Of a stretch of 18,558 bases of DNA, positions 15,913-17,225 are shown piece after piece. The stretch lies in UHGV virus genome UHGV-0255022; one strand, written 5' to 3'. Each line of letters starts with the position of its first letter. Position 1 is the first letter of the stretch. The translations under genes were made by a program, and so were the position numbers. This stretch comes from a virus. The notes beneath the pieces are model-generated. The model was given only the letters and a program-made list of their open reading frames with translations, ran no database searches and was not told the DNA's origin.

Positions 15913-16598
15913 ATACCCAATATTTACAGTATGTCCGCGAGCAACTCATTGTGGCTACCGCTGATTTGAGCGGAGCAACGAAAGGACAGCTTGAAGCCTG
16001 GCTGGAGCATGCACAATTTGATACTGGTACATACAAACGAAAGAAGCCGCGCATTCTGGATGAGGTAACTGGCAGGATGATTACGCTGGATAATCCGCCG
16101 ATTTCCGGTAAGCAGTTGTACGCAAAAGGTTCATCCATTGCACTGGTCAGCCAGGTTGAGTTCTCAACCTCGTCATGGCGCCGCGCGGTTCTGTCTCTCG
16201 AAGAACATCAGAAAGCGTGGTTGCTGTGGAGTTACAGCGAAAGTGTTCGCTGGGAACATCAGGTCACCATAACGCAGTGGGCATGGAGCGAGTTTAAGAC
16301 TCTGTTGGGTACCAGGAAAATTGCAGGTAAAACACTGGAACGTTTGAAGAAGTTGATCTGGCTGGCGGCACAGGATGTGAAGAACGAGCTGGCAGGGCGT
16401 AAGACCTATGAATACCAGGAGCTGGCATCACTGGTGGGAGTGACATCAAAAAACTGGTCTGAGACATTTACTGAACGCTGGGTTGCAATGAAGCACATTT
16501 TTCTACAGCTTGATAGCCAAGCTTTATTGCTTTTAACGAAAACACGTTCAAAACAAAAGACCATATTTTCACAGCAAGATATTGCAAAACTGGATTAA
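15909..16598 (+). CDS. Putative late-gene antiterminator (Q-position protein)
   Basis: 229-aa ORF between the nin genes and a terminator-containing late leader. Assigned by position; the protein has no cysteines, unlike zinc-finger Q proteins, so the family is uncertain. Confidence 0.45.
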   Translation: MNTQYLQYVREQLIVATADLSGATKGQLEAWLEHAQFDTGTYKRKKPRILDEVTGRMITLDNPPISGKQLYAKGSSIALVSQVEFSTSSWRRAVLSLEEHQKAWLLWSYSESVRWEHQVTITQWAWSEFKTLLGTRKIAGKTLERLKKLIWLAAQDVKNELAGRKTYEYQELASLVGVTSKNWSETFTERWVAMKHIFLQLDSQALLLLTKTRSKQKTIFSQQDIAKLD

Positions 16599-16610
16599 AA
16601 ATCATATATT
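16582..16610 (+). promoter_or_regulatory. Candidate late promoter (PR'-like)
   Basis: -35 TTGCAA (16582-16587), 17-bp spacer, -10 TATATT (16605-16610), overlapping the 3' end of the Q-position gene. A -10-like gatatt lies in the early transcribed region as a possible pause element. Confidence 0.4.
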
Positions 16611-16665
16611 TTATGTAAATCTGATATTTTGCCAATGTTGTACGCACTGGCAGTAATCCAAATTC

Positions 16666-16700
16666 AAGCCCGAGGTTTAAAGCCTTGGGCTTTTCTGTTT
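16666..16700 (+). terminator. Intrinsic terminator 1 in the late leader
   Basis: aagcccgagg / ccttgggctt stem (one G-U pair) with a 7-nt loop, followed by ttctgttt. Confidence 0.6.
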
Positions 16701-16779
16701 CTGAACGGTGAGTAGCCTTCCAACCTACCCCAGCCAGGGTGTCTTCAGCTGTTGAGTTGATATTGCTTAACCCTCTGTT

Positions 16780-16805
16780 GCCAGCTACATGCTGGCTTTT
16801 TTATT
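16780..16805 (+). terminator. Intrinsic terminator 2 in the late leader (tR'-like)
   Basis: Perfect GCCAGC-tacat-GCTGGC hairpin followed by ttttttatt. It would end a transcript of roughly 190 nt from the predicted PR'. Confidence 0.8.
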
Positions 16806-16907
16806 CCAGGCTTGCGGGGAGCATCAACTCCGTGCTTTGTCGTTAAATTACCCCGTGAGCCTGATTTCTGACATTTAACGTCCCGGCCTTTTGTCGGCGG
16901 CGAAACA

Positions 16908-17225
16908 TTGGCTATTCATATGCACGAAAAAGAGAGCCTTGCCGGAGCGTTCTGGCTCGTTTTGCTGATCATCGCAGGTTGGGGCGGTCTGGTCCGCTAC
17001 CTGATAGATGTGAAGCAGAGTAAAGCAACGTGGAGTTGGATAAATGCTCTGGCTCAAATAGTGGTATCAGGATTCACCGGTGTTATTGGTGGCCTGATCA
17101 GCATCGAAAGTGGATTCAGTATTTACATGATTCTCGCGACAGCGGGGATTAGTGGTGCGATGGGTTCGGTTGCACTGACGTACTTCTGGGAACGACTGAC
17201 AGGGGTGAAAAATGCAAAATCTTAA
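16908..17225 (+). CDS. Holin (non-lambda-S family), possible dual-start holin/antiholin
   Basis: 105-aa ORF directly upstream of and overlapping the endolysin gene. It has hydrophobic transmembrane segments, a charged C-terminus and two in-frame Met codons (M1, M5). Confidence 0.7.
   Translation: MAIHMHEKESLAGAFWLVLLIIAGWGGLVRYLIDVKQSKATWSWINALAQIVVSGFTGVIGGLISIESGFSIYMILATAGISGAMGSVALTYFWERLTGVKNAKS

What the first reader, a model, noticed from the sequence alone, without database searches (positions are those of the whole stretch)
16582..16908. Late leader with a PR'-like promoter and two tandem intrinsic terminators
A near-consensus promoter (TTGCAA-17-TATATT) overlaps the 3' end of the Q-position gene. 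About 50 nt and 165 nt downstream are two intrinsic terminators (16666-16700 and 16780-16805), both ahead of the holin gene. A terminated transcript of about 190 nt would be comparable to lambda 6S RNA. Late-gene expression therefore needs antitermination, which supports the Q-like role of the upstream ORF.
Basis: partly seen in the sequence, partly recalled or inferred. Interest (0 to 1): 0.45.

Follow-up and report, generated by a model that had tools for sequence, protein, structure and literature searches.

The report
Phage 82-type late promoter and terminators
This stretch is the well-studied late-gene switch of phage 82 (promoter, pause site, Q-loading site, terminator t82), so the finding itself is ordinary; a second terminator and a widely conserved folded RNA just ahead of the lysis genes appear not to have been described.

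Summary
TTGCAA-17-TATATT sits at 16582-16610. Terminator hairpins sit at 16666-16692 and 16780-16796, each followed by a T-run.

The upstream gene is a Q82-family antiterminator (PF06323), 97% identical to phage 82 Q. The start region reproduces every published feature of 82 pR': an AAA start, an extended -10-like pause element at +6 to +14, GCC at +15 to +17, and U at +25. Terminator 1 is t82, the parent of the laboratory terminator t500.

One correction: the main Q-independent transcript should be about 83 nt, not 190. It is a full-length but sub-threshold match to the Salmonella sRNA IsrJ. Only RNA that reads through t82 and stops at terminator 2 would be about 187 nt.

The two terminators belong to different mosaic modules. 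T1 travels with Q82. T2 travels with the lysis cassette. T2 is fused to a roughly 57-nt structured RNA element (16807-16863). That element occurs in more than 100 enterobacterial phage contigs, behind several kinds of upstream gene (Q-like proteins and inserted genes) and ahead of at least eight unrelated holins. Its helix shows compensatory changes. It has no Rfam match and its sequence appears in no searched paper; its function is unknown.

The parts
15909..16598 (+). Q82-family late antiterminator gene
   Evidence: PF06323 at E = 2.6e-93. 97% identical to phage 82 Q, X92588.1. PF06323 is the Q82 family according to PMC9388147.
16582..16610 (+). pR' core promoter: -35 TTGCAA (16582-87), 17-bp spacer, -10 TATATT (16605-10)
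   Evidence: The -35 is identical in ten distinct Q82-type promoter sequences from several phages, including 434, PPompW and Gifsy-1.
16588..16604 (+). Spacer holding the presumed Q82-binding element (AAACTGGATTAAAAATC)
   Evidence: Position inferred. PMC4914094 places the QBE between -35 and -10, within -31 to +30 of 82 pR'. The segment AAACTGGATT(A/G)AAA is conserved across Q82-type modules. The exact QBE bases were not available to me.
16617..16619 (+). Transcription start (+1 = A16617), AAA stuttering start
   Evidence: PMC5001585 describes the 'WT initial AAA sequence' of 82 pR'. With this numbering, all the other published positions fall into place.
16622..16642 (+). Sigma70-dependent pause element: TG (+6/+7), -10-like TATTTT (+9 to +14), GCC (+15 to +17), pause at U+25/A+26 (16641/16642)
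   Evidence: Sequence compared with the text of PMC5001585: extended -10-like element, +15-17 GCC, U at +25, no G after the pause, G at -11 relative to the pause. Only 1 variable column among 10 close relatives.
16617..16700 (+). Short Q-independent leader RNA, about 81-84 nt (5' hairpin 16629-16653 plus the T1 hairpin); IsrJ homologue
   Evidence: Rfam RF01393 isrJ, model positions 1-75 of 75, 30.4 bits against a gathering score of 37, E about 3e-4. The Gifsy-1 isrJ locus carries the same promoter and the same first 15 nt. Fold z = -4.0.
16666..16700 (+). Terminator 1 = t82 (tR' of the Q82 module)
   Evidence: The flanks CAA(A)GCCCG...GGGCTTTTCTGT are shared with t500 as printed in PMC7072734. 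T500 is 'derived from T82' (10.1101/783506). The three natural variants (16670 C>T, 16682 G>A, 16684 C>T) all keep the pairs. Other Q82 modules have unrelated hairpins at the same place.
16701..16779 (+). Spacer containing the junction between the Q82 module and the lysis-leader module (about 16700-16750)
   Evidence: Loci sharing only the left part stop matching at about 16700. Loci sharing only the right part start matching at 16740-16763. This is the most variable intergenic segment: 9 of 79 columns vary.
16780..16805 (+). Terminator 2 (GCCAGC-TACAT-GCTGGC plus T6ATT), part of the lysis-cassette leader
   Evidence: Invariant in close relatives. 72 of 78 distinct upstream contexts in other phages have a hairpin plus T-run at this exact position, with 46 different hairpin sequences.
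16807..16863 (+). Conserved structured RNA element ('R1'): a 13-bp helix (16807-16819 with 16851-16863) enclosing a conserved loop (...GCTTTGTCGTTAAAT...)
   Evidence: Fold -27.6 kcal/mol, z = -4.6. Found as 101 copies in 99 loci. Helix 87% paired against 46-47% when slid by one column; 7 of 12 pairs carry double changes; no shuffle of 500 reached the covariation score. 57 G-U pairs against 8 A-C mismatches indicate a + strand RNA. No Rfam match.
16879..16901 (+). Hairpin next to the ribosome-binding site of the holin gene
   Evidence: Predicted, but not significant on its own (z = -0.8). An analogous CCG...CGGAGG hairpin covers the Shine-Dalgarno sequence in the other leader types. Role inferred.
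16908..17225 (+). Holin (LydA/holin III family) with a dual-start motif: TTG 16908 and ATG 16920
   Evidence: PF16083 at E = 8e-22. Translation begins LAIHMHEKES. Homologues begin MAKRMQDKES.

Best explanation
This is the late-gene control region of a phage 82-type lambdoid phage. The window is identical to Escherichia phage PhiR47_2, and the region is present in about 16% of complete E. coli genomes.

**Proposed mechanism.**
1. Host sigma70 RNA polymerase starts constitutively at pR' (+1 = A16617).
2. Sigma70 re-binds the extended -10-like element at +6 to +14, and the complex pauses at +25/+26.
3. Without Q, the polymerase escapes the pause and terminates at t82 (16666-16700). This releases an RNA of about 83 nt, homologous to the Salmonella sRNA IsrJ.
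4. Polymerases that leak through t82 meet a second terminator (16780-16805). That terminator belongs to the lysis-cassette leader.
5. When Q82 has accumulated, it binds its DNA site in the promoter spacer and loads onto the paused complex. The modified polymerase then reads through both terminators into holin, endolysin and Rz.

**Shown here:** the identity of the protein and of each sequence element, the terminator structures, and their conservation.

**Taken from published work on phage 82:** pausing, Q loading and antitermination.

**Inferred:** that T2 acts as a back-up or insulating terminator, and that the conserved R1 RNA downstream of it acts in cis on the lysis-gene mRNA (stability, processing or translation).
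For: - **Q protein.** PF06323 and 97% identity to phage 82 Q. The nin region has the same gene order and gene lengths as the phage 82 record.
- **Start region.** Every feature of 82 pR' stated in PMC5001585 is present at the right distance from A16617: AAA start, extended -10-like element, +15-17 GCC, U at +25, no G at +26. The pause at +25 and the QBE inside the promoter are also stated in PMC4914094.
- **Terminator 1.** It shares its flanks and its interrupted U-tract TTTTCTGT with t500, the engineered derivative of t82.
- **Conservation.** Promoter and pause element are conserved in 434, PPompW, Gifsy-1 and IMG/VR relatives. The terminator hairpin is replaced by unrelated hairpins at the same position. 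Natural variants in T1 preserve pairing.
- **Terminator 2.** It is invariant in close relatives. In 72 of 78 other contexts a different hairpin plus T-run sits at the same position.
- **Downstream genes.** Holin, a lambda R-like endolysin (recognised from my memory of the lambda R sequence; Pfam gave no hit) and Rz.
Against: - Nothing here was tested functionally in this phage.
- The promoter match alone is no better than chance.
- The Q protein differs from phage 82 Q at 6 residues, mostly C-terminal. The promoter spacer and discriminator differ at 3 positions (16602, 12, 15) from the relatives whose Q C-terminus matches phage 82 exactly. Cognate recognition is therefore assumed, not shown.
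- I could not retrieve the full published 82 pR'/t82 sequence or the exact QBE bases. I compared only against features stated in text and against the t500 sequence.
- I do not know whether phage 82 itself carries T2.
- t82-type terminators are only moderately efficient in vitro (t500: 31% in 10.1101/453969). How much transcription reaches T2 is unknown.
Confidence: 0.9

Rival explanations
1. The terminators exist mainly to make trans-acting small RNAs. On this reading the 83-nt leader is IsrJ-like, and an RNA ending at T2 resembles PasA/PasC. Both would bind Hfq and regulate host genes in the lysogen, where pR' is constitutive. This is compatible with the Q switch and would add a function rather than replace it.
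For: - Full-length similarity to Rfam isrJ. IsrJ is an expressed 74-nt RNA that affects invasion (PMC2330248).
- PasA/PasC are abundant Hfq-bound sRNAs that end at a terminator directly upstream of holin/lysozyme operons. PasD lies near Q genes (10.64898/2026.05.13.724894 and PMC8550237).
- A conserved stretch, GAYATTGC...ACCCTC...TTGCC, precedes the T2 hairpin in several leader types.
Against: - The isrJ score is below Rfam's gathering threshold.
- Beyond the first 15 nt and the 12 nt before the hairpin, the window RNA and IsrJ differ.
- No expression, Hfq-binding or target data exist for this phage.
- Homology of the T2 region to PasA/PasC could not be tested, because no sequences were available. 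The PasA-bearing phage YYZ-2008 has a different pre-holin leader.
Confidence: 0.3
2. T2 is not part of the Q-regulated attenuator. It is the fixed 5' boundary of the lysis-cassette module. It would insulate holin and endolysin from any upstream transcription, including that of inserted genes. The R1 RNA after it would then define a processed, protected 5' end or tune holin translation.
For: - T2 plus R1 occur as one unit behind several kinds of upstream gene: the Q82 family and other Q-like proteins by sequence resemblance, plus inserted genes such as a methylase and an HNH protein. They occur ahead of at least 8 unrelated holin N-termini.
- The module junction maps to about 16700-16750.
- In several loci the terminator directly follows an inserted gene, only 57-134 nt from it.
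- R1 begins 1-3 nt after the U-tract region and is a stable helix.
Against: - In this window no gene lies between T1 and T2, so here T2 can only act on pR' transcripts.
- No processing site, protein partner or effect on translation is shown.
- R1 is absent from lambda, 434, PPompW, Gifsy-1 and YYZ-2008, so it is not a general requirement for lysis-gene expression.
Confidence: 0.4
3. The promoter-like site is a chance match. Late genes would then be transcribed by readthrough from the early rightward operon, and the hairpins would be ordinary gene-end terminators.
For: A 9/12 promoter match is not enriched over shuffles.
Against: - The site and its whole initial transcribed region coincide with the experimentally mapped 82 pR'.
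- It is conserved across divergent Q82 modules while the flanking sequence diverges.
- Gifsy-1 IsrJ, which carries the same promoter, is a mapped 74-nt transcript.
Confidence: 0.03

Closest known systems
Phage 82 late regulatory region (Q82, 82 pR', QBE, sigma70-dependent pause at +25, terminator t82)
   Same: - Q protein 97% identical.
- Same nin-region layout.
- Same -35 and -10 hexamers overlapping the end of Q.
- Same AAA start, extended -10-like pause element, GCC at +15-17 and U at +25.
- The terminator has the same flanks and the same UUUUCUGU tract as the t82-derived t500.
   Different: - Six amino-acid differences in Q.
- Three base differences in the spacer and discriminator relative to the relatives closest to phage 82.
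- I could not check whether phage 82 itself has the same sequence downstream of t82 (T2, R1, this holin). The only phage 82 record available ends at the Q stop codon.
Lambda pR' - 6S RNA - tR'
   Same: Same logic: a constitutive promoter at the end of Q, a sigma70-dependent promoter-proximal pause, Q loading from a DNA site in the promoter, a short terminated leader RNA, and lysis genes first in the operon.
   Different: - Unrelated Q family (PF03589 versus PF06323).
- Pause at +16/17 rather than +25/26.
- Leader of 194 nt rather than about 83 nt.
- No sequence similarity.
- Lambda lacks the R1 element.
IsrJ sRNA of Salmonella prophage Gifsy-1 (Rfam RF01393)
   Same: - Same promoter, including the remnant of the Q 3' end (ATTGCAAAACTGGATTAA).
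- Same first 15 transcribed nucleotides, including the pause element.
- Same CAAATTCAAGCC before the terminator, and similar length (74 versus about 83 nt).
- Two-hairpin architecture.
   Different: - The score of 30.4 bits is below the gathering threshold of 37.
- The middle part and the terminator hairpin differ.
- In Gifsy-1 the promoter is separated from the Q82-like gene (antQ) by isrK, orf45 and anrP.
PasA/PasC and PasD/STnc100 sRNAs of EPEC/EHEC prophages; StxS
   Same: These are RNAs that end at intrinsic terminators in the Q-to-holin interval of lambdoid prophages. PasA/PasC lie directly upstream of the holin operon, as T2 does. The StxS comparison (a terminated pR' leader acting as an sRNA) rests on my memory of Sy et al. 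2020 and was not checked here.
   Different: - They are associated with lambda-type Q (PF03589) and Stx-type lysis cassettes.
- No Rfam STnc100, AgvB or AsxR match in the window.
- The PasA-bearing phage YYZ-2008 has no R1 element.
- Sequence homology to T2 was not testable.

Membership tests
Q82-type late antitermination unit | Q protein of Pfam family PF06323 | tested here: met
   E = 2.6e-93 over 216 of 220 profile positions. 223/229 residues identical to phage 82 Q.
Q82-type late antitermination unit | Sigma70 promoter at the 3' end of Q, with an AAA start | tested here: met
   TTGCAA-17-TATATT at 16582-16610, with AAA at 16617-19. The AAA start is stated in PMC5001585.
Q82-type late antitermination unit | Extended -10-like pause element placed to give a pause at +25/+26, with GCC at +15-17 and U at +25 | tested here: met
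   TG at +6/7, TATTTT at +9-14, GCC at +15-17, T at +25, A at +26 compared with PMC5001585. The match is by sequence only; pausing itself cannot be tested here.
Q82-type late antitermination unit | Q82-binding element in the promoter spacer | tested here: inconclusive
   The spacer AAACTGGATT(A/G)AAA is conserved across Q82 modules and lies where PMC4914094 places the QBE. I did not have the experimentally defined bases.
Q82-type late antitermination unit | Intrinsic terminator downstream (t82) | tested here: met
   12-bp hairpin plus TTTTCTGT. Flanks shared with t500.
Q82-type late antitermination unit | Q-dependent readthrough | not testable with these tools
   Requires in vitro transcription or reporter assays.
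Rfam RF01393 isrJ | Covariance-model score at or above the gathering score (37 bits) | tested here: not met
   30.4 bits, full-length alignment, E about 3e-4. I treat it as a homologous leader, not a curated family member.
Lambda-type late unit (Q-lambda, 6S RNA) | Q protein of PF03589 and sequence similarity to lambda pR'/tR' | tested here: not met
   Only PF06323 is hit. No blastn match to lambda among 50,697 phage records.
PasA/PasC sRNAs | RNA ending at an intrinsic terminator directly upstream of the holin operon | tested here: met
   T2 ends 103 nt before the holin start, with no gene in between. This is a positional criterion only.
PasA/PasC sRNAs | Sequence or structure homology to PasA/PasC; Hfq binding | not tested
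   The sequences are not printed in the papers or the supplement I could read. The pre-holin leader of YYZ-2008 differs from the window's.
Any Rfam family, for the R1 element at 16807-16863 | Covariance-model match | tested here: not met
   No hit covering 16807-16863 even at E <= 10. None for the Gifsy-2 copy either.

The most novel reading that the evidence does not exclude
The roughly 57-nt RNA element at 16807-16863, always fused to a preceding intrinsic terminator, may be an undescribed cis-regulatory leader motif of enterobacterial temperate-phage lysis cassettes.

It is exchanged as a module independently of both the Q type and the holin type. It could control the fate of the first late mRNA through a processed and protected 5' end, through translation of the holin/antiholin pair, or as a third conditional stop. 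If so, it would influence lysis timing or the tightness of lysis-gene silencing in lysogens.
Probability: 0.45. Interest if true: 0.55.

Novelty: already known. Interest (0 to 1): 0.25.

Why it matters
The flagged feature is a textbook regulatory switch. Finding it confirms that this prophage, which is common in E. coli including ST131 and O157 strains, has an intact phage 82-type late switch. It adds nothing new to that mechanism.

Three by-products are more useful.
1. The Salmonella virulence-associated sRNA IsrJ can be read as the terminated pR' leader of a Q82-type module. This suggests what its promoter and terminator are for.
2. 'Tandem terminators' ahead of lysis genes arise by joining two mosaic modules, each of which brings its own terminator.
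3. A strongly covarying RNA element sits at the head of many lysis cassettes and has no known function. It is easy to test by helix-breaking and helix-restoring mutations in an inducible lysogen.

Tried and rejected
- **tRNA genes in the Q-to-holin gap:** none in the window.
- **Rfam at gathering thresholds:** nothing in the window.
- **Rfam at permissive thresholds:** only isrJ is credible. The others (rseX, MicC, Hrs12 and so on) score far below threshold.
- **CII-dependent paQ promoter.** The 434 record annotates one at the equivalent place. The TTGC-N6-TTGC site at 16587-16574 is the only one in the window, against 1.5 expected by chance. The phage has a YdaS/YdaT-type immunity region and no CII homologue was found. 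Not supported here.
- **R1 as a promoter.** No acceptable -10/-35 combination by eye. The G-U over A-C bias and the compensatory changes argue for RNA.
- **R1 as coding sequence.** The TGATAA seen in most types is absent from the window type.
- **R1 as a canonical terminator.** The local hairpin plus CTTTGTCGTT is weak (-10.9 kcal/mol, z = -1.3). The U-rich run after the long helix starts 3-5 nt too late.
- **R1 loop as an anti-Shine-Dalgarno sequence pairing with the holin ribosome-binding site.** Plausible for some leader types, but not for the window type.
- **First covariance-model structure.** I mis-specified it by one column in the distal half, so the pair counts are uninformative. The corrected structure was counted on the MAFFT alignment.
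- **Literature search for the R1 sequence:** no paper prints it.
- **Genome-collection scan with the 17-base pattern.** Mostly chance hits. Only about 10 of 120 are real, and those I could match to the partly shown title list are Enterobacteriaceae.
- **The full published 82 pR'/t82 sequence and the PasA/PasC sequences:** not retrievable.
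Full report
**What the window is.**
The 361 bases around the finding are 100% identical to Escherichia phage PhiR47_2 (PV340567.1). The same region is present in 871 of 5,426 complete E. coli genomes, and 790 of those hold most of it.

The gene ending at 16598 is a Pfam PF06323 protein (E = 2.6e-93). PMC9388147 identifies PF06323 as the Q82 family, one of three unrelated Q families. The protein is 223/229 residues identical to phage 82 Q. The genes upstream (ninB-like, ninE-like, orf96, rusA, orf45) have the same order and lengths as in the phage 82 record X92588.1. 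Downstream lie a LydA-type holin, an endolysin that I recognise from memory as lambda R-like (Pfam gave no hit), and an Rz spanin.

**Checking the observation.**
The hexamers TTGCAA (16582-87) and TATATT (16605-10), 17 bp apart, are there. The -35 lies inside the Q reading frame. As a pattern this is a 9/12 match, and such matches are not enriched in the window (20 found, 28.4 +/- 4.7 expected). The sequence alone would not establish a promoter.

The two hairpins are also there.
- T1: a 12-bp stem at 16666-16692 followed by TTCTGTTTCT, -18.4 kcal/mol, z = -4.0.
- T2: GCCAGC-TACAT-GCTGGC at 16780-16796 followed by TTTTTTATT, -11.9 kcal/mol, z = -3.8.

Terminator-like sites as a class are enriched in the window (31 against 17.7 +/- 4.3).

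**Identification with 82 pR'.**
PMC5001585 gives the following features of the phage 82 late promoter in its text:
- a wild-type initial AAA that causes stuttering;
- a -10-like pause element closer to consensus than lambda's, with an extended -10 motif;
- a 'discriminator' GCC at +15 to +17;
- pauses at +25 and +26;
- a U at +25, no G after the pause, and a G at -11 but not at -10 relative to the pause.

Taking A16617 as +1 (7 nt after the -10), the window has AAA at +1-3, TG at +6/7, TATTTT at +9-14, GCC at +15-17, T at +25 and A at +26. G is then at pause-relative -11 and C at -10. Every stated feature is met.

PMC4914094 confirms the +25 pause. It places the Q-binding element between the -35 and -10 elements, within -31 to +30. 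The corresponding spacer, AAACTGGATT(A/G)AAA, is conserved in all Q82-type modules I collected (434, PPompW, Gifsy-1 and IMG/VR relatives). So are the -35 and the start of the transcript, AAATCTGATAT. Among ten close relatives, the 26-nt initial transcribed region has a single variable column.

**Terminator 1 is t82.**
[quoted passage not shown] It is known for a U-tract interrupted by G/C (10.1101/453969). A primer in PMC7072734 prints the sequence I know as t500 (the name is my attribution, from memory): CAAAGCCCGCCGAAAGGCGGGCTTTTCTGT. The window's T1 reads TCAAGCCCGAGGTTTAAAGCCTTGGGCTTTTCTGTT. The flanks, the outer stem bases and the tract are the same, with a different, weaker middle stem. 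This is what is expected of the natural parent.

The three positions of T1 that vary among close relatives all keep their pairs: C-G to U-G, U-G to U-A, and G-C to G-U. More distant Q82 modules have unrelated hairpins plus a U-tract at the same distance.

**The short transcript.**
Termination at T1 predicts an RNA of about 81-84 nt, not 190 nt. A permissive Rfam scan aligns 16614-16693 end to end with RF01393 isrJ (30.4 bits, gathering score 37, E about 3e-4).

IsrJ is a 74-nt RNA of prophage Gifsy-1 that affects effector translocation and invasion (PMC2330248). In Gifsy-1 the isrJ locus begins with ATTGCAAAACTGGATTAAAA...TATATTTTATGTAAATCTGATA. That is the last codons of a Q82-type gene, the same promoter and the same first 15 transcribed bases. 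It is separated from the Q82-like gene antQ by isrK, orf45 and anrP.

I therefore read IsrJ as the terminated pR' leader of a Q82-type module, and the window's leader as its homologue. It does not meet the Rfam threshold, so I do not file it as a member.

**Two terminators, two modules.**
Similarity to other Q82 phages stops at about 16700. Similarity to phages with other Q types starts at 16740-16763. mEp237 (which has an inserted gene after its Q) and the P22-like Salmonella phage UPF_BP1 share the stretch from T2 to about 45 nt before the holin start. Their T2 hairpins have different sequences at the same place.

A pattern taken from the conserved core found more than 120 IMG/VR contigs. 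In 72 of 78 distinct upstream contexts, a GC-rich hairpin plus T-run immediately precedes the core, with 46 different hairpin sequences.

The nearest upstream gene varies. It is a Q82-type gene in 35 loci. Elsewhere it is one of several other proteins that resemble lambda-type or phage 21/P22-type Q by sequence (not checked against Pfam), or an inserted gene such as a methylase or an HNH protein. The downstream gene is one of at least eight unrelated holin N-termini.

So T1 belongs to the Q module and T2 to the lysis-cassette module. In this phage the two abut with no gene between them. HK225 shows the same pair with an inserted gene between. PasA/PasC of EPEC/EHEC prophages are sRNAs that end at a terminator directly upstream of holin operons. 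They show that a pre-holin terminator is a general theme. The PasA-bearing phage YYZ-2008 has such a terminator about 45 nt before its holin.

**The conserved RNA after T2.**
From 16807 to 16863 the RNA folds into a 13-bp helix (CAGGCUUGCGGGG with CCCCGUGAGCCUG) around a 31-nt loop (-27.6 kcal/mol, z = -4.6).

A covariance model found 101 copies in 99 loci. These include Gifsy-2, HK225, mEp237, UPF_BP1 and many Klebsiella phages. It found none in the late regions of lambda, 434, PPompW, Gifsy-1 or YYZ-2008.

At least seven helix versions exist, for example:
- CAGGCUCACGGG / CCCGUGAAGCCUG
- CAGGGUCGCGGG / CCCGACGGCCCUG
- CCCAGACCCUCGGG / CCCGCAGGGUCUGGG
- GUGCCGUCGGG / CCCGGCGGCAC

On the structure-blind MAFFT alignment, 87.1% of cells pair, against 46-47.5% when the partner is slid by one column. 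Seven of 12 pairs show double changes. No shuffle of 500 reaches the covariation score. My first structure string was off by one column, so one search should be ignored.

Native arm pairs are more stable than non-native combinations (-21.3 against -15.5 kcal/mol). A natural recombinant that joins arms of two types loses the helix. G-U pairs outnumber A-C mismatches 57 to 8, which points to an RNA of the + (late) strand. In close relatives of the window, the four variable positions in or next to the helix all give wobble pairs.

The loop carries the near-invariant GCUUUGU.G.UAAAU. Part of that invariance was imposed by my search pattern. The GGGAAUCAUCC-like 5' half is also conserved and was not imposed.

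There is no Rfam match at E <= 10, and no paper in the library prints the sequence. In the species-representative genomes only about 10 of the 120 returned pattern hits are real copies; those I could match to the partly shown title list are Enterobacteriaceae such as Citrobacter, Kosakonia and Pseudocitrobacter.

I could not determine its function. My preferred guess is a cis-acting element of the lysis mRNA leader: a protected 5' end after cleavage in the U-rich linker, or control of holin/antiholin translation together with the hairpin at the ribosome-binding site. I considered a promoter, a coding sequence, a canonical terminator and an anti-Shine-Dalgarno pairing, and found each unconvincing.

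**Verdict.**
The feature is the phage 82 late switch, one of the best-studied antitermination systems, so the finding as written is already known and of low interest. The modular origin of the second terminator and the R1 element are the parts worth following up.

Noticed in passing
window 16780-16863; also L128:2007-2083 (Gifsy-2), L129:1807-1883 (HK225), L004, L005 and about 100 IMG/VR loci: An intrinsic terminator is fused to a roughly 57-nt covarying stem-loop RNA with a conserved loop (GCUUUGU.G.UAAAU). It sits at the head of lysis cassettes of many enterobacterial temperate phages, independent of upstream gene type and holin type. It is not in Rfam and was not found in the literature searched.
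   Followed up: partly
window 16614-16693; L007:2463-2640 (Gifsy-1): The Salmonella sRNA IsrJ appears to be the terminated pR' leader of a Q82-type late module. Its promoter includes the last codons of a Q82-type gene and the 82-type pause element. In Gifsy-1 it lies downstream of anrP rather than directly after the Q82-like antQ. This suggests that AntQ acts at the isrJ promoter.
   Followed up: partly
window 16635-16608, minus strand: This is the best sigma70-like match in the whole window (TTGGCA-16-TAAAAT, 10/12). It lies on the opposite strand, overlaps the pR' initial transcribed region and points into Q. It could be a by-product of the AT-rich pause region or an antisense promoter. Not examined further.
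   Followed up: no
window 16574-16587, minus strand: A perfect CII-type site, TTGCAATATCTTGC, overlaps the pR' -35 hexamer. The phage 434 record annotates paQ and a CII site at the equivalent place. It is the only such site in the window (1.5 expected by chance), and this phage has a YdaS/YdaT-type immunity region with no CII homologue found.
   Followed up: yes
window 16908-16922: The holin has a dual-start arrangement: TTG at 16908 and ATG at 16920 (L-A-I-H-M). Homologues read M-A-K-R-M. This resembles holin/antiholin pairs, with a weak upstream start codon in this phage.
   Followed up: no
window 17212-17688: The endolysin ORF is a single 158-aa protein that I recognise from memory as lambda R-like. 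It got no Pfam hit at E <= 0.01. The PhiR47_2 record annotates it as two separate 'lysozyme R' CDSs. This is probably an annotation artefact.
   Followed up: no
window 9365-12980 and 13017-14060: Inserted genes lie between the replication genes and the nin region. One is an inverse-autotransporter (intimin/invasin-like) split into a 513-aa beta-domain ORF and a 598-aa Ig-repeat ORF. The other is a minus-strand esterase/lipase-like gene bounded by a strong bidirectional terminator at 12992-13012.
   Followed up: no
L041:5470-5546 and 6548-6624; L061:86-162 and 600-676: Some phage contigs carry two copies of the R1 element about 0.5-1 kb apart. One possibility is that inserted genes sit between duplicated copies of the lysis leader.
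   Followed up: no
L125:2465-2540: A natural recombinant joins the 5' arm of one R1 type to the 3' arm of another. The long helix is lost. This is a possible natural loss-of-structure variant.
   Followed up: no
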